Translations under genes and position numbers: made by a program
The notes under the pieces: generated by a model
Told to the model about the DNA's origin: nothing
What the model saw: only the letters and a program-made list of their open reading frames with translations
The model's database searches: none
IMG/VR virus record: IMGVR_UViG_3300025251_000012
Location: 14,444 to 78,443 of that record
Direction: 5' to 3' (one strand)
Origin: a virus
Lineage: Duplodnaviria; Caudoviricetes
DNA: 64,000 nt
In this document: one piece after another, positions 1,775 to 64,000 of the stretch
Numbering within the stretch: position 1 is the stretch's first letter
Layout of the letters: the number at the start of each line of letters is the position of its first letter

Positions 1775-2638
1775 ATGGCCAAGTTTATTGCTCTTAAACC
1801 AGCTAAACTAGGCCCTAGGACTGATTTCCCAACTAGAGACCTTCGACAGAATGTCTTTAAGTACGGTATGCGCGTACTTTGGGAGATGGTTACAGTCTGC
1901 CCTTGTGAAAGAAAAAGTATAGACGCTTTATCAATAGATTTTGGTACCCGCGAAAAGCCGATTGGATGTCCGCTAAAAGAATTTGATTCCGCTATTTGTG
2001 GTGGGAATGGTTACATATACCATAGTGGGCAAGAGATTCAGGCGCTTGTGCACGATGGGTCTAGAGACCCAGATCGTTGGAAAGTTTGGGGTGAGCACGC
2101 TGCGGGTAACGTGTCTATTACGACGCTTCCAGAGCACTTACCGTCGTTTCTAGACCGAATTACCCTCCTAGATACGGTTATGGTTTATCGTGAGCGTAAA
2201 AAGCGGACAGCAAATTCTGTCGAGGGCCTAAGATATCCAGTTGTAACGAGGTCTATGGTTCTGGGCACCGAAGAAGATCCTACTAAGTCAGTGGCTTCAG
2301 AGTTTGGAGTTTTATACGCTATAAAAGCGTCTGAGGATGGTAAGATTGTGCTGGGGGCGGATAACAAACCCTTAGAACTAAAGCAGGACGAGGATTTTAT
2401 AGTCACCGCAGAAGGCAAAATAGATTGGAGCCAAGGTTTATCCAGCGGGCGCGCACCGAACCCAGGCGAATATTATTCTATGCAGTACTTTATACACCCA
2501 GTGTATGTAATTCGTTCAATGCCTTACCAGTTTCGTGATTCTGTACACAAAGTTAAACAGGTTCAACAAGAGCTAACTAATCTACCGACAAAGGTTATGG
2601 CTTGGTTAGAATTTTTGGGGTCACCCGGTGGCGACTAA
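1775..2638 (+). CDS. Head closure / neck protein
   Basis: Synteny; VLWEMVTVCPC...C...GNGYIY motif typical of SPO1/K-type head-completion proteins. Confidence 0.55.
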   Translation: MAKFIALKPAKLGPRTDFPTRDLRQNVFKYGMRVLWEMVTVCPCERKSIDALSIDFGTREKPIGCPLKEFDSAICGGNGYIYHSGQEIQALVHDGSRDPDRWKVWGEHAAGNVSITTLPEHLPSFLDRITLLDTVMVYRERKKRTANSVEGLRYPVVTRSMVLGTEEDPTKSVASEFGVLYAIKASEDGKIVLGADNKPLELKQDEDFIVTAEGKIDWSQGLSSGRAPNPGEYYSMQYFIHPVYVIRSMPYQFRDSVHKVKQVQQELTNLPTKVMAWLEFLGSPGGD

Positions 2639-3503
2639 ACGTCTAGACTTATACAACGTTGTTCGGATTAAAAAATCCCACATGCGGCGGCGTATGACCG
2701 CCATGGCCCGCATCCTTGAAAATGAGTGGAAGCGTTTAGCGGCTAATGGCTTAAACACTACCTCTGTTACTTACAGAAACAACATTGTTGTAGAGGATGT
2801 TGACGAAGATAAACTTGTGCTGGTTCTAAGAGGTACTGTACCTAATATGGTAGAGCAGGGTTTAGGTCCGAGCGGCGTGGGCTCCTTCGGCGCGTTTGAT
2901 ATAAGAACCTTCGTGTTAAGCGGCACAAGCCCGAACATACGTTCTTCGGGAGGGGGTTCTTATGTGAACGTACCCTTTAGATTTTCAACAGGTCAAATCA
3001 AAGACTTGTCTTATTCTATCCGAGGTATTAATGCTCCAGCAGCCGCGAAAACGCTGGCATCTTTAGCATCTGTAAAATCTAAGTCTGGTGAGTACACCGT
3101 ATTTAATCCGGCCACGGGGATCGCCGGTTGGCCTCAAGGAACCCTTCAAGTTGGAGATCCCCTAACGGGTAAAAAGCGCGCTGCTATGGATGCAGCAAGG
3201 GGCGGCCCCCCGGGTAGGTTAGGCGCGGGCTTTGCACCTAAAATGCGTTCAAAGCCAAACTTTTTAATGGATCCAATGTCTGGAAATGTGCGGGTTCAAG
3301 AACCGCATAGGAACGACCCTTTAGCGGGTCTTGTAAAATTTGGCAAAACATATGCCTCTACGACACAGAGCACCTATGGAACTTTTAGGCGTATGTCTAG
3401 TAAAGGAAAGCCCTGGATACACCCGGGAATTAAGCCTCGTAAATTTGCTGAAAAACTTGACCTGGGCAAAGCCATGTCACTGGCTTTTATGGACCTTGTA
3501 TAA
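2628..3503 (+). CDS. Neck protein (Ne1/HK97-gp10-like position)
   Basis: Synteny; basic protein ending FRRMSSKGKPWIHPGIKPRKF, a common ending for this family. Confidence 0.5.
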   Translation: MATKRLDLYNVVRIKKSHMRRRMTAMARILENEWKRLAANGLNTTSVTYRNNIVVEDVDEDKLVLVLRGTVPNMVEQGLGPSGVGSFGAFDIRTFVLSGTSPNIRSSGGGSYVNVPFRFSTGQIKDLSYSIRGINAPAAAKTLASLASVKSKSGEYTVFNPATGIAGWPQGTLQVGDPLTGKKRAAMDAARGGPPGRLGAGFAPKMRSKPNFLMDPMSGNVRVQEPHRNDPLAGLVKFGKTYASTTQSTYGTFRRMSSKGKPWIHPGIKPRKFAEKLDLGKAMSLAFMDLV

Positions 3504-32900: not shown

Positions 32901-33260
32901 ATGTTTAAAAAGTTAAAACCTAAGTTCTTTTGGGGCAGCCGCGTTCCTGGGTGGCTTGGAAAAATACTACCCTTTAAGCCAGACGCGGTTAGCTTCTTAT
33001 GCTTTGTTTGGGTTAGATATCCGCACAAAGATAGGCGCTTACAGGATCACGAAACGATCCATTTTCAGCAACAATTAGAGTTGTTATTTGTTCTACAGTG
33101 GTTGTTGTACAGTCTTTTCTATCTAAAAAGACTGTACGACTACAGGAATGTTTACCAAGCATATTTGCAAAATCCTTTTGAAAGGGAAGCCTATTCAAAT
33201 GAAGGAAATAGACAATATCTAGAGCACCGCCCTAGGTTTGCGTGGTATAAATATATTTGA
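32901..33260 (+). CDS. Small HExxH zincin-like protein (DUF4157-like)
   Basis: HETIHFQQQ...NPFEREAY. Confidence 0.55.
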   Translation: MFKKLKPKFFWGSRVPGWLGKILPFKPDAVSFLCFVWVRYPHKDRRLQDHETIHFQQQLELLFVLQWLLYSLFYLKRLYDYRNVYQAYLQNPFEREAYSNEGNRQYLEHRPRFAWYKYI

Positions 33261-38376: not shown

Positions 38377-38874
38377 TTACTCCTTTTCCGGTGACCACGC
38401 TTTAATTACGGGCCGTCTTTTGTCTTCGCTAAACACCAGTACGCAAGAAGGCGCTGGTGAGGCGTTGGTTGTTTTCAAATCTCCGCGCATGAAATGGATT
38501 CTACCTTTAATCATTCTTATTTCTGAGGCCTTTAGTGCCCAATCGTGCCACCATTTCGTATCCGACCTTACATAAGTTAGAACTATTACGGTACAACCTT
38601 TAAGGGATTCCTTGTAGGCCTTTTCAATCCACTTACCAATGCCGCGCCCGTATGGGGGGTTTACCCACACAATGTTTGCAGCGGCTGACCAGTCTTTAAG
38701 AAGTGCATTATCCTTCTTAGTAAAGTACGCGTCACACTTTGCAGAGTCTTCTGTAGCACAGGCATCTAGCTCAAATTCAAACTCATCGTCTAACGGATCA
38801 AATATATATGAAGGCGTGTACCATTCATTGCTATTGGATGAGTAAAGTTGTTCGGCGTTCCAGGGCGATGTCAT
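38377..38874 (-). CDS. Phage DNA N6-adenine methyltransferase (Dam-like phage family)
   Basis: EWYTP...FELDACA...VWVNPPYG...TKWWH...IKGRIHF. Confidence 0.9.
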   Translation of the reverse strand: MTSPWNAEQLYSSNSNEWYTPSYIFDPLDDEFEFELDACATEDSAKCDAYFTKKDNALLKDWSAAANIVWVNPPYGRGIGKWIEKAYKESLKGCTVIVLTYVRSDTKWWHDWALKASEIRMIKGRIHFMRGDLKTTNASPAPSCVLVFSEDKRRPVIKAWSPEKE

Positions 38875-39811: not shown

Positions 39812-41302
39812 CTACTCCATACTTTCCGCGTCATCCAACATATCAGCAGCGGCCGATACGACATAGGTACGCTTTTCTATTTGGTCGTCGCTATCGGGAT
39901 TAATTTCGGTCATATCGACCCATAGTAATTTAGAGTCCTGCAAATGCAGCGGAATCTTCGTACCGTCTTCGTATAGGCGGGGGCCTACATGGTATGTGTG
40001 CCAGTGCGCTTTTCTAAAATGACCACTAACCGCTTTACCGGTTGTCATAGTATTGCGGGTGGCGCGTGCTTCGTATGAGTTTCCGACCATAATAATAGAG
40101 CACTTCGTGGCTTTTAAAATTTTAGGCCCTAAGCGTTTGGCCCGAGAGAGTTTAGACTTTCTGAGCTTCTTTTTGAGGCTTCGTACATGCTTGCTGTTTG
40201 TGGCGTTAGACCGCGTGAAATCTGGGTTAGTGCTATTAGCATAAAGAATCAAGTTTACCAGGAGCTTAACGCAGTGGTGTAAGGAGGCTTTCATACGAGC
40301 ATACTGGTACGAGGATGTAGGCGCGTAAGGGATACCAGCGTCGTTCGCCTGATTATCGTGACTACTCAAAACCCATTCAACATAGTCAGTAATAGCATTA
40401 GGGGTTCCCCATTTTATATGTTTAAGGCACAGGGTTAGCTGTGTTGTAGGAACGTCAGATTCATTAACGGACTTTTCGTTCGGCCTACCAACAATGAGTA
40501 AGGACAGGAAGTCGCCGTGTTCTGTGACAAAAAACCCACCAAGCTTATGATATCCAGTATCTTCGGGCTGGAAAATACCAGTGCCTAAGCGCTTTTCTGG
40601 GTCGGTAGTCGGTAGCGCTCCGATTGCTGAATTTCTTCCCGTATCTCCGTGCCCATATAAAAGATGCTCGTCGGCCGCGATACTTTGTGTGTCTGGAAGT
40701 GCCACATAAAAAGCCCTGTATGGCAGTCTAAAGTATTTTTCTGGGACGTTTGATATGGGCGTTTCTGAAAGCGCCTTTTCCATAAAGCTATCTATAACAA
40801 AGCATTCTTGGCGATAGTGCCTGTACATAAGCAGGGACGTTAAAAGGATTTGCTGTACAGGTAGGACTTCGGGGTCGTTCGTTGGTTCAAGTAGTTCGCC
40901 TGTTGCAGGATCTCTTCCAAAATCTTTCTCGTACCAAATTCTGAAATTTGTGCACGTAGCTTCTGAAACCGTTATTTGTATTAGAAAGCGGCCCTTTTCT
41001 TTTGAGTCGTGTACGCCGTTTACATACACCAAGCCCTCAAAACCCGGTTTTCCAAAGCCCGGGCGGACGGCTAATATGGATACAATGTCGCCCAGTGAGG
41101 TCCCATCATGTGGGACAGTTCCGAAAGCTTCATCGCCTTCTGGATTCCCGCGAGCCGCTAATATGGCTTCATAGTAATTATAAAAGTCAGCTTTCATATG
41201 GTCCCTCGTTCCAGCGGTAAATATGTGCAGTGTGGGGAAGTTTCCATGACCCCATAGGGGCATCGCCTTTACAACATGCCGATCAACCGCAGTCTGACGC
41301 AT
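39812..41302 (-). CDS. Hypothetical protein (496 aa) with His/Arg-rich C-terminal motif
   Basis: SGHFRKAHWHTYHVG; RBS GGAGG; own sigma70 promoter. Confidence 0.6.
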   Translation of the reverse strand: MRQTAVDRHVVKAMPLWGHGNFPTLHIFTAGTRDHMKADFYNYYEAILAARGNPEGDEAFGTVPHDGTSLGDIVSILAVRPGFGKPGFEGLVYVNGVHDSKEKGRFLIQITVSEATCTNFRIWYEKDFGRDPATGELLEPTNDPEVLPVQQILLTSLLMYRHYRQECFVIDSFMEKALSETPISNVPEKYFRLPYRAFYVALPDTQSIAADEHLLYGHGDTGRNSAIGALPTTDPEKRLGTGIFQPEDTGYHKLGGFFVTEHGDFLSLLIVGRPNEKSVNESDVPTTQLTLCLKHIKWGTPNAITDYVEWVLSSHDNQANDAGIPYAPTSSYQYARMKASLHHCVKLLVNLILYANSTNPDFTRSNATNSKHVRSLKKKLRKSKLSRAKRLGPKILKATKCSIIMVGNSYEARATRNTMTTGKAVSGHFRKAHWHTYHVGPRLYEDGTKIPLHLQDSKLLWVDMTEINPDSDDQIEKRTYVVSAAADMLDDAESME

Positions 41303-41460
41303 TTACCTCCGCCCTAACCCACTAACGACCCTACACGGCCGACCCCATGGCTAATGCCTTTCCGAGGTCCGGTGCCGGAGTTTTCTGGCAACTAAACCAG
41401 TTAATTCATCGGGCCATGGCAATACCCGACTATCCGCTAGTTAACGCGGCACATACTCAC

Positions 41461-41489
41461 ACAATAAGACTACATGCTGTAACTGTCAA
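41461..41489 (-). promoter_or_regulatory. sigma70-type promoter
   Basis: TTGACA-17 nt-TATTGT on - strand upstream of 41302. Confidence 0.7.
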
Positions 41490-41544
41490 ATGGTTATTTA
41501 TAAATAATCTATAAAAACGCTACTTTTGTAGTGATTCAAAGAAC

Positions 41545-41574
41545 TTGCGTGGTGTATAAAACACCTAATATAGT
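41545..41574 (+). promoter_or_regulatory. Candidate divergent sigma70-type promoter for the + strand island
   Basis: TTGCGT-18 nt-TATAGT; spacer holds GGTGT-ATAAA-ACACC inverted repeat. Confidence 0.45.
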
Positions 41575-41583
41575 GATCTCGGC

Positions 41584-41964
41584 ATGGTTTTGCGCTTACA
41601 TAAATGGCCACAAGGTTTAGACTCTTGTCTTAATTGCACCTCGACTCCGGTGGAGGCGAGTTATGCCAGTCGCGGCCTTTGTACACGTTGCTACGATAAA
41701 CATCGTCGCCACGGCACACTAAAGAAGTACGAATTTTTAGGCGCTAGTTGGAAATCTACAGCAAAAAACCCAACGTTAAGAGCCGTCCGTAAAATAGGCA
41801 TCACTATAACCGCTATGTTGGTTGGCGAAGACCCCGGTGTAATCAGGGTCTGGTGTAAAGAAGGCACCCCTAAAAACATGCAGGCGATTATGGACGAAGC
41901 CCTTCTAATTATAAACTCGAAGAACCCCGACCACAGGGCATTGCTTTTCCCAGACGACCACTAG
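41584..41964 (+). CDS. Zn-finger-like protein, possible DNA-binding regulator
   Basis: CLNC...RGLCTRCY; C-terminal HTH-like TAMLVGEDPGVIRVWCKEG. Confidence 0.5.
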   Translation: MVLRLHKWPQGLDSCLNCTSTPVEASYASRGLCTRCYDKHRRHGTLKKYEFLGASWKSTAKNPTLRAVRKIGITITAMLVGEDPGVIRVWCKEGTPKNMQAIMDEALLIINSKNPDHRALLFPDDH

Positions 41965-42006
41965 CTGTAGTTGTGTTAGCTCCGGGTTGGGCAGTCGCGC
42001 AAGTGT

Positions 42007-44082
42007 GTGGCACTCGGAGATACTTTGCGAGCCAGGTTAGTCACAACAACCTTAGTTTTAGTACTGGCAAGCAGTTGTAGCAAGAGCAGCGGCGATGGGT
42101 TTTCGCCCAATGAACTGGACGCGGTGGATACCCTTAGCTTTGTAGACGCCGATACTTACGACCCCCATACCGGGGATACCTACGAATACGAAAAGCGTTG
42201 TTACCAAGACCAATATTGGTACTGCCCGCCCCTATCTGCTGTGTGGCGCAAAGTGGTTACAGTAGATATATGCGACGAAAACGGCGACCCGTGCACAGCC
42301 TCCGAGTGTCAGTGGTCTATCGTAACTATGGGTGACTGCGAAGAAATCTTTGAATGCGACCCTACGGGGCCGACCAATCTCGGTGAAATTGTGTGCGAGG
42401 TTGATGGGCTTTTAGGAGTTCAAACTAAATACTGTGACAAAGGCTTCTTTTCATACAGCCCATGTGACCCTTGTACAGATGAGATTTGTGACAGCATAGA
42501 CAACGATTGCGATGGGACAACAGATGAGGGTTTGTACCCATGCTCCACTGATTGCGGCGATGGTGAGGGTGCCTGCATAAATGGCAAGGTAACGCTGTGT
42601 TCCGCGCCCGAGCCCACGGAAGAGGTCTGCAACTACGTTGATGACGACTGCGACGGTCTTACTGATGAGGGTCAAACAAACATTTGTAATCTATGCGGCG
42701 ATGTTCCGAGCGAAGATTGCGATAGTTTTGACAATGACTGCGATGGGCTGATTGATGAGGATTTGCTAGATGGCTGTAGTACGGCCTGTGGCGATGGCTA
42801 TAAAACGTGTGTTTCCGGTATGTGGACCCTGTGCTCCGCGCAAGAGCCTCAAGACGAGGTGTGTAATGGGTTGGATGACGACTGCAATGGTTATATAGAC
42901 GACGGGATTAGCTGCGGCTGCCCCCCGGAAGATGTTGGGGCAATATTCCCCTGCCTTGAGCCGCCGCTCGTATGCGGCCAAGGCTACAAACAATGCGCAT
43001 GTGTGGACGTGGGTTGTGCAGAGACCGCGATGACGGAGTGCCACGCCCCCTGCCATTTCTTCCCGATACCCGGCCAGACGTGTGATGACACTCTTGGAGT
43101 TCCATACCCAGAGGTCTGCAATAACCACGACGACGATTGCGACACCTTGATAGACGAAGATCTTGTCAAGGGATGTTACACCGGGCCTCCAGCAACAGAG
43201 GGCGTTGGCGAGTGCATCCCCGGCGAGATGACGTGTCTCGCGGGCAAGTGGGGCGGTAAAGTTAAAACTTCTAATACCCCAGAGACATTTGTGGAAGGCC
43301 TCTGCGTTGGTGAAGTAACGCCCATGTCCGAAGATCTCTGCGGCGGGGCAGACAATGATTGCAATGGTCAGGTTGAAAAAGAGCTAGAGGATACAGACAT
43401 CCTTTTCATCATTGACGCTTCAGGGTCCATGTACGAAGAAATTGGGGCAGTGGCGCAAGCAATGACCACATTTGCGGCAAGCTACTCCGGCTCCACCGCA
43501 ATTCATTGGGGGCTGGTTACCGGACCTACGGCAGTTGGTTCTGGGTTGTCTGAGAAGCTATATCTCAACCAAAATCTTACTGAGTTCTCTACCTTTGTAC
43601 CCGCGCTTTCCGCAATGGCTACGTCGTATCTTGGCGGGGCCAATGAGATGTTATATGACGCCCTCTATTTAGCAGCGCACAACCTTGTAGATCCTCAAAC
43701 GCTACCGCACCAAATATCAGATCTTGCGTGGGGGCCGGGAGCCAACCCGTCAGTTCCTAGCATCCAAGGTTTCAAGATTAATTGGCGGGAAAACGCTCAC
43801 CACGTGATTATCGTGTTCTCGGACGAAATGGGTCAGAGCTATCTCAAGCCTATGTTGTCCCAGCAGAACCTAGTAGACGTTCTAAGCCATGCGGACGACC
43901 TATCTGTTTATACTTTTAGTACCGGGTTCACAAAAGACGTAACCGACTGGCTGGGCAACAAAGTCGGCTGGGAATCGGTTTCTGTTGGCGGCTCTTGGAA
44001 CGAACTGAGCACAGACCCAACAAAAATGTTTGGTGCATTGATGGACATTTTGGATGAAACCGCCTGCGGAGGTGCCCCATGA
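42007..44082 (+). CDS. Myxobacterial-type surface lipoprotein: six Cys/Asp-rich (MopE-like) repeats + C-terminal vWA domain
   Basis: Signal LVLVLASSC; repeats EICDSIDNDCDGTTDEG, EVCNYVDDDCDGLTDEG, EDCDSFDNDCDGLIDED, EVCNGLDDDCNGYIDDG, EVCNNHDDDCDTLIDED, DLCGGADNDCNGQVEKE; MIDAS DILFIIDASGSM; IIVFSDE. Confidence 0.85.
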   Translation: MALGDTLRARLVTTTLVLVLASSCSKSSGDGFSPNELDAVDTLSFVDADTYDPHTGDTYEYEKRCYQDQYWYCPPLSAVWRKVVTVDICDENGDPCTASECQWSIVTMGDCEEIFECDPTGPTNLGEIVCEVDGLLGVQTKYCDKGFFSYSPCDPCTDEICDSIDNDCDGTTDEGLYPCSTDCGDGEGACINGKVTLCSAPEPTEEVCNYVDDDCDGLTDEGQTNICNLCGDVPSEDCDSFDNDCDGLIDEDLLDGCSTACGDGYKTCVSGMWTLCSAQEPQDEVCNGLDDDCNGYIDDGISCGCPPEDVGAIFPCLEPPLVCGQGYKQCACVDVGCAETAMTECHAPCHFFPIPGQTCDDTLGVPYPEVCNNHDDDCDTLIDEDLVKGCYTGPPATEGVGECIPGEMTCLAGKWGGKVKTSNTPETFVEGLCVGEVTPMSEDLCGGADNDCNGQVEKELEDTDILFIIDASGSMYEEIGAVAQAMTTFAASYSGSTAIHWGLVTGPTAVGSGLSEKLYLNQNLTEFSTFVPALSAMATSYLGGANEMLYDALYLAAHNLVDPQTLPHQISDLAWGPGANPSVPSIQGFKINWRENAHHVIIVFSDEMGQSYLKPMLSQQNLVDVLSHADDLSVYTFSTGFTKDVTDWLGNKVGWESVSVGGSWNELSTDPTKMFGALMDILDETACGGAP

Positions 44083-44240
44083 GCCTACTTCGGGACATTT
44101 TACTTACAGGCATTGGCCTAAATTGTGGGCTTTTGCTTTTCAGCCTTGCAAACGGCGAGTCAACAGGGGTTTTTGTTGCGCTTATTAGCGGGATATTTTG
44201 TGCAGCAGGGGCGGGGTATGTGCGTGCGAAAATGGGCTAA
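44079..44240 (+). CDS. Small two-helix membrane protein (53 aa, below cutoff)
   Basis: My translation MSLLRDILLTGIGLNCGLLLFSLANGESTGVFVALISGIFCAAGAGYVRAKMG; ATGA overlap with vWA gene. Confidence 0.55.
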   Translation: MSLLRDILLTGIGLNCGLLLFSLANGESTGVFVALISGIFCAAGAGYVRAKMG

Positions 44241-44379
44241 ATCAACAGTCAGGCAGTTGGCCGGTTCGCTGATATTTGTGCTGGTGTGTTTTGCAACAGC
44301 GGCGGTATTTGCGCCAACGGCCGAAGATATTGGTGACCGAAAATGGCAGACGGGCAGTGGAGCTTTAGAAGAGGCGTGA
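44218..44379 (+). CDS. Small single-pass membrane protein
   Basis: C-terminal part of ORF 44125..44379; LAGSLIFVLVCFATAAVFA. Confidence 0.4.
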   Translation: MCVRKWAKSTVRQLAGSLIFVLVCFATAAVFAPTAEDIGDRKWQTGSGALEEA

Positions 44380-44642
44380 ATAGGGCACTTGGCAGGGGGA
44401 CAAGGGTAGAGGTTAAAAGGCCTATTGAGGTCACTTGCCCAACTAAAGATAAGACTATCCAAATAGTCGTTGCCCAAGGCACTACCGGAACCATCTTAGA
44501 AATCATACCGAACCTTCGTGTTCGACTTGACGATGTGTACGAGGGGAAAATCCGGGAAATACGGTGGCATTCAAGCGCAAAGATTAACGACGACTTGGTT
44601 TCTATTGATGACGAAGAGAGGCGATTGTGGGTGGTCAAATAG
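44343..44642 (+). CDS. Hypothetical small beta-rich protein
   Basis: ORF within + island; true start may be GTG near 44376. Confidence 0.45.
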   Translation: MADGQWSFRRGVNRALGRGTRVEVKRPIEVTCPTKDKTIQIVVAQGTTGTILEIIPNLRVRLDDVYEGKIREIRWHSSAKINDDLVSIDDEERRLWVVK

Positions 44643-45511
44643 TAAGATTATTTTTGGCGTTCTTAGTAGTGATAGCGCTTTCTTGTGCGGGCACAACCGG
44701 TGGGTCTACAGCAGTTACACAGCCTAAACTGCCCAGGGCCTCATTCGTTTTCTTGACGCACACATATTCAGAAAACCTTTGCCACAAAGACCAATGTATA
44801 CCGGCAAGTAGGGTTAAATTTGTTGGGTCAGGGTTTTCCATAGCAACAGATAAAACCGGATCGCTAATTATGACGGCTGGGCACCTTTGTAAGCGTCCGG
44901 TCCCTAAGTACACAGGCGGCTTTAGGATGTCTACTGAATCTAGTATGACAGCGGCAACCCCAGGCGGGGGGAAATACCCTGCAAAGGTGCTTGCGGTATA
45001 CACGGGAATTGACGCGTGTGTGTTGAGGATCGACGGTGTGCACATAACCCCTGTTAAATTTGCAACCGAGGCACCAAAATATGGGGAGCGTGTTTATGCA
45101 CTTGCGGCCCCGCTTGGGTTGTACTCGTCCGAGATGTTACCGAAATTCGAGGGCTTCTACTCTGGCAGCGCTTATAAGGTCGCAAAACCTTCCCCATGGA
45201 CAGGCTCTTTTGATGAACTAACTATTTACACAATACCCACAAGAGGTGGCAGCAGCGGTGCCCCGGTATTCAATTCAAAGGGCGAGGTCATTGGAATTAT
45301 AATCATGGCCGCTATTAGCCTAGAAAACTTGTGCTGGTCCCCAACATTTGAAGCCCTACAACAGATTTGGTTAGCTTTAGAGCGAGAGGCATATGGGAAA
45401 AAGAAAGAAGAAGGCAAAAACAGTTGGGAAAGAGGCGCAAGCGCGCCCAACAATGAAAATTTCACACCGGAATATGTTAAGTGTTTCCTCACAAAAGAAG
45501 AAGCGAAATAA
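44627..45511 (+). CDS. Exported trypsin-like serine protease (lipoprotein-like signal)
   Basis: Triad TAGHLC / IDACVL / RGGSSGAPVFN; N-term LFLAFLVVIALSC. Confidence 0.85.
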   Translation: MGGQIVRLFLAFLVVIALSCAGTTGGSTAVTQPKLPRASFVFLTHTYSENLCHKDQCIPASRVKFVGSGFSIATDKTGSLIMTAGHLCKRPVPKYTGGFRMSTESSMTAATPGGGKYPAKVLAVYTGIDACVLRIDGVHITPVKFATEAPKYGERVYALAAPLGLYSSEMLPKFEGFYSGSAYKVAKPSPWTGSFDELTIYTIPTRGGSSGAPVFNSKGEVIGIIIMAAISLENLCWSPTFEALQQIWLALEREAYGKKKEEGKNSWERGASAPNNENFTPEYVKCFLTKEEAK

Positions 45512-45676
45512 GCGTACAAAAAAATGACCCCTATAAGTTGTGGTGTGTTCTTCCAAACCCACAAGTTGTTGGGTACTTTAAATAGCTACTACTACTAAAA
45601 GTTATGACTATTTGCAGCTTTCTCGCGCGTAAGACGTGGGTGGCCCGCAATATCTGACAGGATTTCTGAAAGTTTT

Positions 45677-46279
45677 TTATCTTTTTCTGTGAATGGAGTC
45701 CGAGCCCTCGGTTTCCATTTCATTTAAAGGCAGCCTGTTAAAGATCTGGTTGTCATACATTTCAAGCAGGCGTTTCATGCTTCTTACTCTTCTAGCGTAA
45801 CCCTTTGACCTTTTATTACACACGCGCCCAGCATTGTAATGACACTGGTAACTGTCGCCGTAGGCATTTTTAAACTTTTTTACTGCCTTTAGACCCGCAG
45901 CTATGACATCGCAGCCACGTGCACGCCGTTTGGGGCAGAAGTACCTAGGCAAAATTTGTAGTGGCCCTATGGCCCCAGCAGATGACACAGCAGTCATAGA
46001 GAATTTGCTTTCGTAATAACCAATGGCGACGACCTCTGGGATAGAGAGTCCGTAGTCTTCGGCCTTACTAGCCAAGGTGACGCACGTCTTCATGCGCGGC
46101 GGAAGGTTTTTAGCTAGTTTATTTCTGTAACTTTTAGACCCCACGTTATGAAATAGCGTAGACAGGGCAAGAGCACAGTGTACCTCTGCTCTTAAAGAGG
46201 GCGTGTCCTGGTTTTTTGCGAACGCAAGATCTGTGATTCCAATATGGAAGATGACGGCCAGCGCTATAATCAAGTTCAT
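45677..46279 (-). CDS. Lytic transglycosylase (SLT domain) with N-terminal signal/anchor; endolysin candidate
   Basis: VVAIGYYESKFSMTAVSSAGAIGPLQILP and HYNAG motifs; hydrophobic N-terminus. Confidence 0.8.
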   Translation of the reverse strand: MNLIIALAVIFHIGITDLAFAKNQDTPSLRAEVHCALALSTLFHNVGSKSYRNKLAKNLPPRMKTCVTLASKAEDYGLSIPEVVAIGYYESKFSMTAVSSAGAIGPLQILPRYFCPKRRARGCDVIAAGLKAVKKFKNAYGDSYQCHYNAGRVCNKRSKGYARRVRSMKRLLEMYDNQIFNRLPLNEMETEGSDSIHRKR

Positions 46280-46301
46280 TTTTAATCCAATGTCCTAACG
46301 T

Positions 46302-47936
46302 TTAGAACGGCGTAGTTATGTTTAAAACAGCCGGTATCGCATTAGCAAGCTCATCGTTATGCGTAACAACAAATACCAATCTGTCTGTGCTTATCTCAGA
46401 CAGAACATCGACGATAGCAGCCACGCCGTCCGAATCTAGTGCGTCAAACACCTCATCAAACATCATGGCTCCCGAGTAGCCGGAAGCGGCTTCAGCTATA
46501 GCCCCCAACCCCAACATTAGCGCTACGTCCACCCGCCTACGTTGGCCGCTGGATAGCGCTTTATACCCATTACCGCCCCCGCCACCGTGGATGTGGAGGC
46601 TTATTGTGTCCACGACCTTCCCGCTGGCTTGCACAGTTTCGCCGCTTAATTCTATGCTAAGGTCCGTACATAAGCGCGATAGCCACGAATTAGCCGATGC
46701 TTGGAGCCCGTTTAGTGCGTTTGTAACCACTTGGGCACGGACACCTCTTGTGTTCAGAACTGTGGCAACGTGGCCTAAGACATCAACCTTGTCCTGTAGT
46801 TCAGACTTTTCATCGCCAAGCGACACCGCCTCTTCTTCGTGGGCGGCTTTAGAAGCAAGAAGCTGCTTCTTACTACTCTCAGCTTCTTTGGCAAAGGTTG
46901 TACTCTGGATTACAGAACGCATTTTGGTGTCTAGGTGATAAGACGCCTCGGATAGCAAATCGCAATCTCCGGTCAGTTCTTCTAGGTTGACAGTTAACGC
47001 AGATAGGGAAGCCCTCTTAGTTTTATGCTCTGCGGTTAGGGCCGCTGTAGTTTCATCTATCACAGCGCGAACGTTGTCCCGGTATTCTGCGCGTATGTCT
47101 TGGAAGCATGTAGGACACTTAGCATCTTTAATATTTTCAACCTTCTCTGCTTCAAAGCTAAGTTTTGATTCAATAGTTATTACGTCTTTACGACAGCTTC
47201 TTACTTCAGCGCTAACTTCAGAAACCTCACTTTGTGCCTGTTTATATTGTTCCTCAAGTTTAGACAGTTTGTCTTCAAGGACTTTTAAGTCGTCTGTAGG
47301 CCCTAGATTCTTCTCATATTTTTCGTAATCAGAAATTCGATCTTTAAGGCTTTTAATGCGCTCTTGTAAAATTTCACTGCCCTGCTCTAATTTCACAAGA
47401 TTCCCTTTACCGGTATTCAAATCAGTCCGACACAGCATGTGAGCACTGTCGAAACGATCTACGCCTAACACCTCTTCGAGCAACCTTTTTCGTTCTTTGT
47501 CCGAAGCCATAGAAAAGTACACGGCATCAGAAGATGAAAAGACCCTGCTACGAACCCAAAGGCCGAAGTCCCCAACGATTGACTCTAAAGCCTCTTGCGC
47601 AGCGCTCATGGTGGGAAACTCTGCGGGATCTTCAAAGGTGCCGTCATGGTTGTATTTCCAACCCATTTGGGTGCGCCCATTTTCCCGCCGCCTAATAATG
47701 TAAACTTCATCAGTTGTGAGTCCCACCTCACAAGCGACTTCATCGTCCCCACCTGGGATAGTTCCGCGAAGTGTTTTGCCCCAAACAGCCCAGCAAATAG
47801 CTTCAATAATCGTGCTTTTACCGGTGCCGTTAGCCCCAGTTATGACCACGGCACCCTTCTTAGGGAATGTTAGTGTGAAGCCATTCAACCCGTGAAAGCC
47901 CGTGACCTCTATGTGCAGAATATTCATGCTAGGCAT
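46302..47936 (-). CDS. SbcC/Rad50/gp46-like recombination ATPase
   Basis: GANGTGKS Walker A, CPTC zinc hook, LSSGQRRR signature, FDEVFD Walker B. Confidence 0.92.
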   Translation of the reverse strand: MPSMNILHIEVTGFHGLNGFTLTFPKKGAVVITGANGTGKSTIIEAICWAVWGKTLRGTIPGGDDEVACEVGLTTDEVYIIRRRENGRTQMGWKYNHDGTFEDPAEFPTMSAAQEALESIVGDFGLWVRSRVFSSSDAVYFSMASDKERKRLLEEVLGVDRFDSAHMLCRTDLNTGKGNLVKLEQGSEILQERIKSLKDRISDYEKYEKNLGPTDDLKVLEDKLSKLEEQYKQAQSEVSEVSAEVRSCRKDVITIESKLSFEAEKVENIKDAKCPTCFQDIRAEYRDNVRAVIDETTAALTAEHKTKRASLSALTVNLEELTGDCDLLSEASYHLDTKMRSVIQSTTFAKEAESSKKQLLASKAAHEEEAVSLGDEKSELQDKVDVLGHVATVLNTRGVRAQVVTNALNGLQASANSWLSRLCTDLSIELSGETVQASGKVVDTISLHIHGGGGGNGYKALSSGQRRRVDVALMLGLGAIAEAASGYSGAMMFDEVFDALDSDGVAAIVDVLSEISTDRLVFVVTHNDELANAIPAVLNITTPF

Positions 47937-63795: not shown

Positions 63796-63907
63796 GGAAG
63801 GGTTCGAGCCCGGGTGCCATGCCCATATGTGGCAAAGGTTCGAGCCCGGGGCAAAGCTCGAAGCCCGGGGCAAAGCTCGAAGCCCGGGGCAAAGCTCGAA
63901 GCCCGGG
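63796..63907. repeat. 19-bp tandem repeat (3 exact + 2 degenerate copies)
   Basis: GCAAAGCTCGAAGCCCGGG at 63851, 63870, 63889; variants GGCAAAGGTTCGAGCCCGGG (63831) and GGAAGGGTTCGAGCCCGGG (63796). Confidence 0.9.
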
Positions 63908-64000
63908 CCAAAGATTTTAGAAAAGTCTCCGGGTGCGGGCGTGTTCGCAGACGGGTAAAAGGTCAAAACTTTTTTGAAAGAGTTTGGCATAAGTCCCCGG

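What the first reader, a model, noticed from the sequence alone, without database searches (positions are those of the whole stretch)
41584..45511. Counter-oriented island of cell-envelope genes: a phage host-surface remodelling cassette
Seen: within a - strand arm, a + strand operon with its own divergent promoter encodes a Zn-finger/HTH-like protein, the vWA adhesin, two small membrane proteins, a small beta protein and an exported trypsin-like protease; several are coupled by overlapping stop/start codons. Known: in Myxococcus the surface vWA adhesin CglB is held by an outer-membrane platform and shed by proteolysis. Inference: an adhesin plus protease module that alters host adhesion, motility or phage receptors (superinfection exclusion or host clumping). 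I know of no description of such a system in a phage.
Basis: partly seen in the sequence, partly recalled or inferred. Interest (0 to 1): 0.8.

Follow-up and report, generated by a model that had tools for sequence, protein, structure and literature searches.

The report
Phage operon for two envelope lipoproteins
An uncultured 78-kb marine phage carries a tightly packed operon for an integrin-like sticky lipoprotein, a lipid-anchored protease and three small proteins; both large proteins belong to undescribed, phage-only families found in hundreds of marine phages and probably alter the infected cell's surface, though nothing has been tested.

Summary
Window 41584-45511 is a plus-strand run of six genes inside a minus-strand arm, and four of its five gene junctions overlap. 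It encodes the only two predicted lipoproteins of the 78-kb phage. One is a Cys-rich protein with a C-terminal vWA domain whose metal-binding adhesion site (MIDAS) is invariant. The other is an S1 serine protease with an intact catalytic triad. Independent assemblies and contigs bridge both borders, so the island is not a chimera.

Both lipoproteins belong to families seen almost only in uncultured marine phages: 464 and 237 IMG/VR contigs, none in GenBank phages. Cellular genomes, mostly Myxococcota, match only the Cys/Asp repeats.

The order vWA, small SH3-like barrel, protease, with one or two membrane peptides ahead of the barrel in three of them, recurs in four lineages. Protease-then-vWA occurs in three more. 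In most jumbo phages the two genes lie kilobases apart.

Best reading: an infection-time module aimed at the host envelope. Surface remodelling or superinfection exclusion is plausible but unproven. The specific CglB and gliding analogy is weak, because the vWA domain has no homologue in the Myxococcaceae searched, this phage has no GltF, and the host is unknown.

The scan noted the same gene pair before on other phage DNA. I found no published description.

The parts
41303..41583 (.). Divergent intergenic region between the AcrVA2-like gene (-) and the island (+). This is the presumed promoter region.
   Evidence: It is 281 nt at 44.8% GC, and its last 114 nt are 32% GC. Sigma-70-like matches were not above shuffles. 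Contig X9 record 20 bridges it.
41584..41964 (+). zf126: a small protein with CxxC...CxxC plus an HTH-like C-terminal half. It may be a regulator and is not conserved with the rest of the cassette.
   Evidence: Sequence. No Pfam, PHROG, NCBIfam or PADLOC hit. Only two relatives in 5.8 billion proteins. The Atlas gave Cro/YdaS-like structural leads with TM 0.52-0.61 by row. It is absent from L001.
42007..44082 (+). Cys-rich lipoprotein with repeats and a vWA domain. The probable true start is TTG 42025. It has lipobox Cys24, a disordered tether at about residues 22-54, five D[DN]DC[DN]G repeats, and a C-terminal integrin-like vWA domain with a MIDAS site.
   Evidence: - Pfam PF11617 (4 stretches) and PF00092.
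- Invariant C24, D470/S472/S474, E547, D551 and D606 in 26 homologues.
- AF2 pLDDT 82.5.
- Foldseek hits to integrin beta, ANTXR2, TRAP and LapA vWA domains at E about 1e-6.
- 49 Cys.
- GGAGA lies 5 nt before TTG 42025.
44079..44240 (+). tm53: a 53-aa peptide with two predicted TM segments. Its start overlaps the vWA stop (ATGA).
   Evidence: It is 77% identical in L001, with dN/dS 0.13. A 46-aa counterpart sits in L271.
44218..44379 (+). tm84, better read as a 53-aa single-TM peptide. It overlaps tm53 by 23 nt.
   Evidence: Independent gene calls in four assemblies give this 53-aa form. Sequence. A weak homologue exists in L001 (35% identity). It is absent from L271 and L008.
44343..44642 (+). 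b99: a small SH3-like beta-barrel with no signal peptide. It is the recurrent gene between the vWA and protease genes.
   Evidence: - AF2 pLDDT 84.4, pTM 0.72.
- Best VIA matches are SH3/KOW-like barrels with Z of 6.9 or less, which gives no function.
- 15 relatives among 1.84 billion representatives.
- It lies between vWA and protease in the window, L006, L271 and L008, follows vWA in L007, and stands alone in L269.
44627..45511 (+). Lipoprotein S1 (Trypsin_2) serine protease. Its GTG start overlaps the end of b99 by 16 nt.
   Evidence: - PF13365 at E 3.9e-20.
- Invariant lipobox C20, triad H86/D129/S210 and three further Cys (C52, C57, C88) in 10 homologues.
- No PDZ domain. Only weak HtrA/MarP similarity.
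- 237 IMG/VR contigs carry a relative.
45512..45676 (.). Convergent intergenic region between the protease (+) and the SLT gene (-).
   Evidence: No convincing intrinsic terminator: fold z-score -0.73 (scan). Independent contigs bridge it (X9 record 25, X11 record 15).
45677..46279 (-). Neighbour, not part of the operon: an SLT-type lytic transglycosylase with an N-terminal signal-like segment. It is the last gene of the SbcCD-containing minus-strand operon.
   Evidence: PF01464 at E 1.3e-6. Sequence. SLT genes also lie within 7 kb of the vWA gene in L005, L017, L063 and L071.

Best explanation
This is a real accessory operon of an uncultured marine myovirus-like phage, and its translational coupling implies it is made as a unit in the infected cell.

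Shown:
- It encodes the phage's only two lipoproteins. One has Cys/Asp repeats of the calcium-binding type and an integrin-like vWA domain with a conserved metal-ion adhesion site. The other is an S1 serine protease with an intact triad.
- Between them lie two tiny membrane peptides and a cytoplasmic SH3-like barrel.
- Both lipoproteins belong to large, essentially phage-only families.
- Their adjacency, usually with the barrel between them, recurs in several phage lineages.

Inferred:
- After Sec export and lipidation, both proteins sit in the host envelope, probably anchored in the outer membrane.
- The vWA domain grips a conserved envelope ligand through its MIDAS face.
- The protease cuts envelope proteins there. 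The target could be what the vWA protein has captured, as the vWA and protease domains of complement factor B work together. Alternatively it could be the disordered tether of the vWA protein itself, releasing it.
- The net effect is a remodelled host surface during infection. The most likely outcomes are masking or removal of a receptor or adhesion structure, which would exclude superinfecting phage and keep progeny from sticking to debris.

The envelope-targeted, jointly acting reading is fairly secure (about 0.7). The exclusion or adhesion outcome is a guess (about 0.35).
For: - ORFs, overlaps and orientation.
- Domain calls.
- Invariant lipobox and MIDAS residues; invariant lipobox and catalytic triad.
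- vWA fold.
- Only two lipobox ORFs in the genome, both in the island.
- Family sizes: more than 2520 metagenomic proteins and 464 viral contigs for the vWA protein; 237 viral contigs for the protease.
- No GenBank phage carries either. No cellular orthologue was found.
- The same gene order occurs in L001/L006, L271 and L008. Other adjacent orders occur in L017, L019, L028 and L043.
- Adjacency needs at least 4 changes on the vWA tree.
- The protease is found elsewhere in 3 of 5 jumbo contigs that carry the vWA gene.
- tm53 has dN/dS 0.13.
- In jumbo relatives both genes lie among replication, nucleotide-metabolism and PhoH genes rather than virion genes.
- The island is bridged in independent assemblies.
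Against: - No experiment and no expression data exist.
- In most jumbo phages the two genes are 6-86 kb apart. One contig that CheckV rates complete (G001) has the vWA gene but no protease, so the two proteins can work alone.
- Six of the seven adjacent cases fall in one clade of the vWA tree, so linkage may partly be inheritance.
- The ligand, the protease substrate and the host are all unknown.
- There is no similarity to any known exclusion protein (PHROGs).
- Promoter and terminator were not demonstrated.
Confidence: 0.45

Rival explanations
1. The genes are independent accessory genes that only happen to be neighbours here. The vWA lipoprotein and the protease each have their own role, and the operon is a product of genome compaction.
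For: - In jumbo phages the protease is a lone counter-oriented gene next to PIN-PhoH in 70 of 81 loci. The vWA gene sits elsewhere, among replication genes.
- Only 18 of 80 protease loci have a vWA gene within 10 kb.
- G001, rated 100% complete, lacks the protease.
- b99 occurs without either gene in L269.
Against: - Translational coupling runs across the operon.
- Adjacency occurs in at least three different orders, and once outside the main clade.
- b99 lies between the two genes in four lineages.
- A second, distant vWA type also sits beside the protease in L212, L214, L215 and L241.
Confidence: 0.2
2. This is a lysis-accessory module. The small membrane peptides act as holin-like proteins. 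The two lipoproteins, together with the neighbouring SLT transglycosylase, loosen the outer membrane or its tethers to peptidoglycan at the end of infection, in place of spanins.
For: - An SLT with a signal-like N-terminus lies 165 nt away, convergent.
- SLT genes lie within 7 kb of the vWA gene in four other loci.
- There are two roughly 53-aa membrane peptides.
- Spanins include an outer-membrane lipoprotein (established knowledge).
Against: - The SLT belongs to the opposite-strand SbcCD operon.
- A candidate amidase endolysin lies elsewhere in the genome, at 2638-3027 (weak). The related contig L269 has an Amidase_2 gene with small downstream genes.
- Both lipoproteins are far larger than o-spanins, and no i-spanin-like partner is present.
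- In jumbo relatives the genes sit among early/middle-type genes and apart from each other.
- The membrane peptides are missing from L008 and are not conserved in jumbo phages.
Confidence: 0.12
3. This is the first reader's specific reading: a mimic of the myxobacterial gliding adhesins CglB/CglD plus a shedding protease. It would plug into or sabotage the host Glt focal-adhesion machine and so change gliding, clumping or receptor display in a Myxococcota host.
For: - The layout (lipoprotein, Cys-rich calcium-type repeats, then a beta-integrin-like vWA domain) parallels CglD and partly CglB.
- The repeats match Myxococcota and Bradymonadia proteins best.
- Sub-threshold GltF-like ORFs occur in 3 of 5 jumbo relatives.
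- Earlier scan notes report GltF beside this gene pair in giant phages.
Against: - No Myxococcaceae protein matched the vWA half in the 41 genomes searched.
- There is no NCBIfam gliding-family hit and no GltF in this phage.
- The phage is 48.7% GC, which by general knowledge is far below typical Myxococcota.
- CglB release is ascribed to a metalloprotease and was seen only in mutants.
- The host is unidentified.
Confidence: 0.15
4. The products are virion-associated proteins, for example an adhesin displayed on the particle with a maturation protease.
For: In L001 the cassette lies between head-module genes on the same strand.
Against: - Lipoprotein signal peptides direct both proteins out of the cytoplasm, where tailed-phage particles assemble.
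- There are no PHROG structural hits.
- In jumbo relatives the neighbours are replication and metabolism genes.
- In the window the island is in the non-structural arm.
Confidence: 0.03

Closest known systems
[quoted passage not shown]
   Same: Both are lipoproteins with Cys-rich, Asp-rich calcium-type repeats in the N-terminal half and a C-terminal vWA domain. That domain has a MIDAS site and resembles the integrin beta I domain.
   Different: - The phage protein is 691 aa against 1130 aa for CglD.
- No sequence match to the vWA half was found in 41 Myxococcaceae genomes.
- There is no Glt context and no GltF in this phage.
- It is encoded by a phage and belongs to a phage-only family.
CglB of M. 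xanthus (vWA surface lipoprotein adhesin; PMC9946355)
   Same: Both are vWA lipoproteins with many disulphide-forming Cys and a functional MIDAS site. CglB can be released from the cell by proteolysis.
   Different: - CglB has an N-terminal vWA domain plus a jellyroll and no MopE repeats.
- Its release is EDTA-sensitive, which points to a metalloprotease, and occurs only in glt mutants.
- No homology was detected here.
Phage superinfection-exclusion lipoproteins such as T5 Llp and the Cor proteins (my own knowledge)
   Same: They are phage-encoded outer-membrane lipoproteins made during infection or lysogeny. They bind a host surface protein, block further adsorption and protect progeny.
   Different: - Those are small, single-domain proteins that act on FhuA.
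- There is no sequence or fold relation (no PHROG hit).
- They have no protease partner.
- An exclusion role here is untested.
Complement factor B / C2 (vWA domain plus trypsin-like serine protease; my own knowledge)
   Same: A MIDAS-bearing vWA module docks on a target, and a chymotrypsin-fold protease cleaves a substrate there.
   Different: In factor B and C2 the two modules are fused in one eukaryotic polypeptide. Here they are separate lipoproteins. This is an analogy of logic only.
HtrA/DegP and MarP periplasmic serine proteases
   Same: Chymotrypsin fold, a Trypsin_2 Pfam match and an envelope location.
   Different: - No PDZ domain.
- Scores lie far below the family cut-offs (23 bits against 416 for TIGR02037).
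- Lipid anchor.
- The family is phage-only.

Membership tests
von Willebrand factor A domain (PF00092) | Profile match above the curated threshold | tested here: met
   25.6 bits against a cut-off of 23.8, residues 464-563.
von Willebrand factor A domain (PF00092) | MIDAS motif: DxSxS plus distal acidic or Thr ligands | tested here: met
   D470, S472, S474, E547, D551 and D606 are invariant in 26 homologues. The spatial arrangement in the model was not inspected.
von Willebrand factor A domain (PF00092) | Alpha/beta Rossmann-like vWA fold | tested here: met
   AF2 pLDDT is mostly 80-97 over residues 460-680. Foldseek probability is 1.00 to integrin beta, ANTXR2, TRAP, LapA and BatB vWA domains.
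MopE-type putative metal-binding repeat (PF11617) | Profile match above threshold, repeated | tested here: met
   51.4 bits against a cut-off of 27, in 4 stretches. Five D[DN]DC[DN]G motifs.
Bacterial lipoprotein (both large proteins) | Signal peptide ending in a lipobox with an invariant Cys | tested here: met
   VLASSC (C24) and IALSC (C20). The Cys is invariant across 26 and 10 homologues respectively.
Bacterial lipoprotein (both large proteins) | Actual lipidation and membrane location | not testable with these tools
   Needs globomycin or palmitate labelling and cell fractionation.
S1 / Trypsin_2 serine protease (PF13365) | Profile match above threshold and a His-Asp-Ser triad | tested here: met
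   73.5 bits against a cut-off of 27.6. H86, D129 and S210 are invariant.
HtrA/DegP family | Protease domain followed by PDZ domain(s), scoring above the family cut-off | tested here: not met
   No PDZ hit. TIGR02037 scores 23.3 bits against 416.
CglB / CglD gliding adhesins | Sequence homology across the vWA domain to myxobacterial proteins | tested here: not met
   Profile A1 matched only repeat positions (about 105-494) in 41 Myxococcaceae genomes, and never the rest of the vWA domain (profile positions about 495-673). No NCBIfam hit.
CglB / CglD gliding adhesins | Genomic or functional association with Glt machinery parts (such as GltF/CglF) | tested here: not met
   NF033764 is absent from this phage. 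Only sub-threshold hits, far from the vWA gene, occur in 3 of 5 jumbo relatives.
Moron (autonomous accessory transcription unit) | Own promoter and terminator | tested here: inconclusive
   Consensus scans were not above shuffles. No stable terminator hairpin. There is an AT-rich divergent gap.
Moron (autonomous accessory transcription unit) | Present, absent or relocated among related phages | tested here: met
   In L001 the cassette sits inside the head module, next to the g455 homologue. L269 has only b99 there.
Holin / spanin lysis proteins | Holin-like or spanin-like topology with linkage to the endolysin | tested here: inconclusive
   tm53 (2 TM) and tm84s (1 TM) are of holin size, but no family matched them. 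There is no i-spanin-like partner, and the SLT is on the other strand.
Known anti-phage defence proteins (PADLOC) | Profile match beyond a generic domain | tested here: not met
   Only weak trypsin-domain hits, at E of 1.5e-5 or weaker.

The most novel reading that the evidence does not exclude
The vWA lipoprotein, SH3-like barrel and lipoprotein protease form a previously unrecognised phage system that is widespread in marine phages. It would rewire the host outer membrane during infection. The integrin-like lipoprotein would capture a conserved envelope machine, such as a gliding or adhesion complex or a receptor. The protease would then clip that machine or release the adhesin, giving exclusion, altered motility or clumping of infected cells. 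If the hosts exchange outer-membrane lipoproteins between kin, as myxobacteria do, the effect might even spread to neighbouring cells.
Probability: 0.2. Interest if true: 0.8.

Novelty: new variant of a known kind. Interest (0 to 1): 0.58.

Why it matters
Phage genes that act on the host envelope decide who can be infected next and how infected cells behave. The known examples are small, come from model coliphages and are few.

Here two large, strongly conserved protein families appear to be almost exclusive to uncultured marine phages: an integrin-like vWA lipoprotein and a lipid-anchored protease. They occur in hundreds of viral contigs and thousands of metagenomic proteins, and I found no description of them in the searched literature.

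The compact operon in this 78-kb phage, and its three relatives with the same order, is the clearest sign that the two proteins work together. It also offers a small, clonable unit for testing what they do.

If they mask or cut a conserved surface structure, that would be a new mechanism of exclusion or host-behaviour control in the sea. It would also give a handle for identifying the hosts of a large group of jumbo phages.

Tried and rejected
- **Similarity to known phages.** DNA and protein searches of GenBank phages found nothing.
- **Solved structures.** No solved structure matches the vWA family by sequence.
- **Protease relatives.** The word-based search found only 5, so I built a profile from the loci instead. 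'Relatives' cannot be drawn for a virus record.
- **GltF/CglF** (a lead from earlier scan notes). It is absent from the cassette and from the whole phage.
- **Defence-system libraries.** Only generic trypsin hits.
- **b99.** The fold search gave only generic SH3/KOW barrels with Z under 7, which carries no functional information.
- **zf126.** No family match and almost no relatives.
- **Promoter and terminator.** Scans and the fold of the convergent gap were not above chance.
- **Selection.** dS was saturated for vWA, b99 and the protease, so no dN/dS could be given for them.
- **Expression.** No RNA holder was listed among the sequencing runs, so nothing can be said about expression.
- **Chimera hypothesis.** Rejected.
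- **Virion-protein reading.** Rejected on signal peptides and gene context.
- **tRNA host clues.** None in the window.

Full report
**What is there**

The window is bases 14444-78443 of a single 78,443-bp virus record (48.7% GC; CheckV completeness 100%; no exact terminal repeat found). Baseplate and tail-fibre PHROG hits on the + strand mark it as a tailed, myovirus-like phage.

From 36 kb onward the genes run on the - strand. They include an HTH-metallophosphoesterase, Dam, an AcrVA2-like protein and SbcCD. The one exception is a + strand run at 41584-45511.

- zf126, 41584-41964.
- A 691-aa vWA protein, 42007-44082.
- tm53, 44079-44240.
- A second membrane peptide.
- b99, 44343-44642.
- A 294-aa protease, 44627-45511.

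The vWA stop and the tm53 start share ATGA. The next three junctions overlap by 23, 37 and 16 nt. The vWA protein probably starts at TTG 42025, which has GGAGA 5 nt upstream and gives a textbook signal peptide.

**Not an artefact**

The identical vWA protein sits in 24 contigs from several samples, with the same neighbours on both sides. In marine metagenome runs that are not the likely source, contigs bridge both borders: X9 record 20 covers 40933-43001 and X9 record 25 covers 45147-46800. No alternative joints were seen.

**The proteins**

*vWA protein*
- It scores above the Pfam cut-offs for the MopE-type repeat (4 stretches) and for VWA.
- It has 49 Cys and five D[DN]DC[DN]G motifs.
- Among 26 homologues at 43-53% identity, the lipobox Cys24, the DxSxS at 470-474, E547, D551, D606 and about 100 other columns are invariant.
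- AF2 gives pLDDT 82.5, with a disordered tether at residues 22-54.
- The C-terminal domain matches integrin beta I-like, ANTXR2, TRAP and LapA vWA domains.

*Protease*
- It is a Trypsin_2 domain (E 4e-20) without PDZ.
- Ten homologues share an invariant lipobox Cys20, the triad H86/D129/S210 and three more Cys.
- It is therefore a lipoprotein, not merely an exported protein.

*Whole genome*
- A regex scan of the whole genome finds only these two lipobox ORFs.

*Small proteins*
- b99 folds as an SH3-like barrel (pLDDT 84.4). Only generic matches came back. It has no signal peptide.
- tm53 is under purifying selection against its L001 counterpart (dN/dS 0.13).
- zf126 has two CxxC pairs and a weakly Cro-like half. 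It has no family and almost no relatives, and it does not travel with the cassette.

**Distribution**

- The vWA lipoprotein has more than 2520 full-length relatives in metagenomes and relatives in 464 IMG/VR viral contigs. Many of these are 145-267-kb jumbo phage contigs carrying ThyX, PurA, DnaB, peptide deformylase, ClpP, TROVE and similar genes.
- No GenBank phage carries it.
- A scan of 185,579 species genomes returned only matches to the repeat region (mostly residues about 120-460; a few weak ones, at 26-27% identity, reach residue 600-670), chiefly in Myxococcota and Bradymonadia. A profile search of 41 Myxococcaceae genomes likewise never matched the vWA half.
- The protease family is in 237 viral contigs. 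It is absent from GenBank phages. Five cellular genomes gave only weak HtrA-like matches.
- Both are therefore essentially phage-only families. Their Cys/Asp repeat module is shared with Myxococcota-type surface proteins.

**Linkage**

It does.

| Arrangement | Where |
|---|---|
| vWA, tm, tm, b99, protease | L001/L006 (42-kb viral contig), at 69, 77, 35, 47 and 39% identity |
| vWA (78% identical), tm, b99, protease | L271 (Tara contig) |
| vWA, b99, protease, all overlapping | L008 |
| vWA, an 85-aa ORF, protease | L017 |
| protease directly upstream of vWA | L019, L028, L043 |

- On a vWA tree, adjacency needs at least 4 changes. Six of the seven adjacent cases sit in one well-supported 15-member clade, and one lies outside it.
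- Elsewhere the genes are looser. 18 of 80 protease loci have a vWA gene within 10 kb, typically convergent and 6-9 kb away.
- In 3 of 5 jumbo contigs with no nearby protease, the protease lies 8-86 kb away. One contig rated complete lacks it.
- In 70 of 81 protease loci the protease is a lone counter-oriented gene divergent from PIN-PhoH.
- b99 also occurs alone, beside the g455 homologue, in L269.
- In L001 the cassette lies in a different place, inside the head module next to the g455 homologue. It therefore behaves as a movable accessory unit.

**Mechanism**

Shown: two exported, lipid-anchor-type proteins, one with a conserved ligand-binding MIDAS site and one with an intact protease triad, are encoded in one translationally coupled unit, and that unit recurs.

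Inferred: they act on the host envelope during infection, with the vWA protein binding a conserved ligand and the protease cutting at that site or cutting the vWA tether.

The very high conservation of the vWA family argues for a conserved target rather than lineage-specific receptors.

Rivals:
- *Independent neighbours.* Loose linkage in jumbo phages and the protease-less G001 favour this. The repeated adjacency counts against it.
- *Lysis role.* The neighbouring SLT with a signal-like N-terminus and the two small membrane peptides favour it. Against it, the SLT is in the opposite SbcCD operon, a weak Amidase_2 candidate lies at genome 2638-3027, and the jumbo-phage context looks early or middle.
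- *CglB/Glt mimicry.* This rests on architecture only. The closer analogue is CglD, which has calcium-type repeats followed by a beta-integrin-like vWA domain. There is no sequence homology, no GltF in this phage and no known host. CglB shedding is attributed to a metalloprotease in mutants.

**Novelty**

Full-text searches found no description of a phage vWA lipoprotein and protease pair.

This scan has noted the same pair before on other phage DNA, including giant phages where GltF lies beside it. I tested that lead. There is no GltF here, and 3 of 5 jumbo relatives give sub-threshold GltF-like hits that are not adjacent to the vWA gene.

I class the finding as a new variant of a known kind, namely phage accessory genes that act on the host envelope. 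Function is unproven.

Noticed in passing
window 39812-41302 (-) and 38377-38874 (-): The gene divergent from the island carries a precomputed AcrVA2-like Pfam hit (PF26125) and matches phrog_6160. A Dam methylase lies just beyond it. Together they look like an anti-defence neighbourhood.
   Followed up: no
L169-L248 (protease loci of jumbo marine phages): In 70 of 81 loci the lipoprotein protease is a lone counter-oriented gene divergent from a PIN-PhoH gene. GT4 glycosyltransferases, a PD-(D/E)XK nuclease and an M90-like peptidase lie nearby.
   Followed up: partly
L010, L015, L016, L021, L026, L029, L045, L046 and others: A DUF5658 three-TM protein directly follows the vWA gene in 23 of 83 loci. 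Other small single-TM proteins take that position in further loci.
   Followed up: partly
L212, L214, L215, L241: A second, distant vWA protein type (25-27% identity) lies about 1 kb from the protease on the opposite strand. This hints at a wider vWA-protease association.
   Followed up: no
L274 (G002), L275 (G005), L276 (G003): Sub-threshold GltF/CglF-like ORFs (E 8e-11 to 4e-6, below the curated cut-off) occur in 3 of 5 jumbo phage contigs that carry the vWA lipoprotein. They lie 25-30 kb from the vWA gene.
   Followed up: partly
genome 2638-3027, before the window (L273): A weak Amidase_2 match (E 3.8e-5) sits in a 333-aa frame near the contig start. It is a likelier endolysin than the SLT next to the island.
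   Followed up: no
L269 5001-5285 and 5527-6870: A related 31.6-kb phage contig has a b99 homologue convergent with the g455 (HTH-metallophosphoesterase) homologue, but no vWA or protease gene. This is the same spot where L001 carries the full cassette.
   Followed up: partly
window about 63800-64000: The contig end carries tandem copies of a GGCAAAGCTCGAAGCCCGGG-like unit.
   Followed up: no
window 32901-33260 (+): A 119-aa ORF after the tail-fibre genes matches phrog_15610, annotated 'protease' (E 2.4e-20).
   Followed up: no
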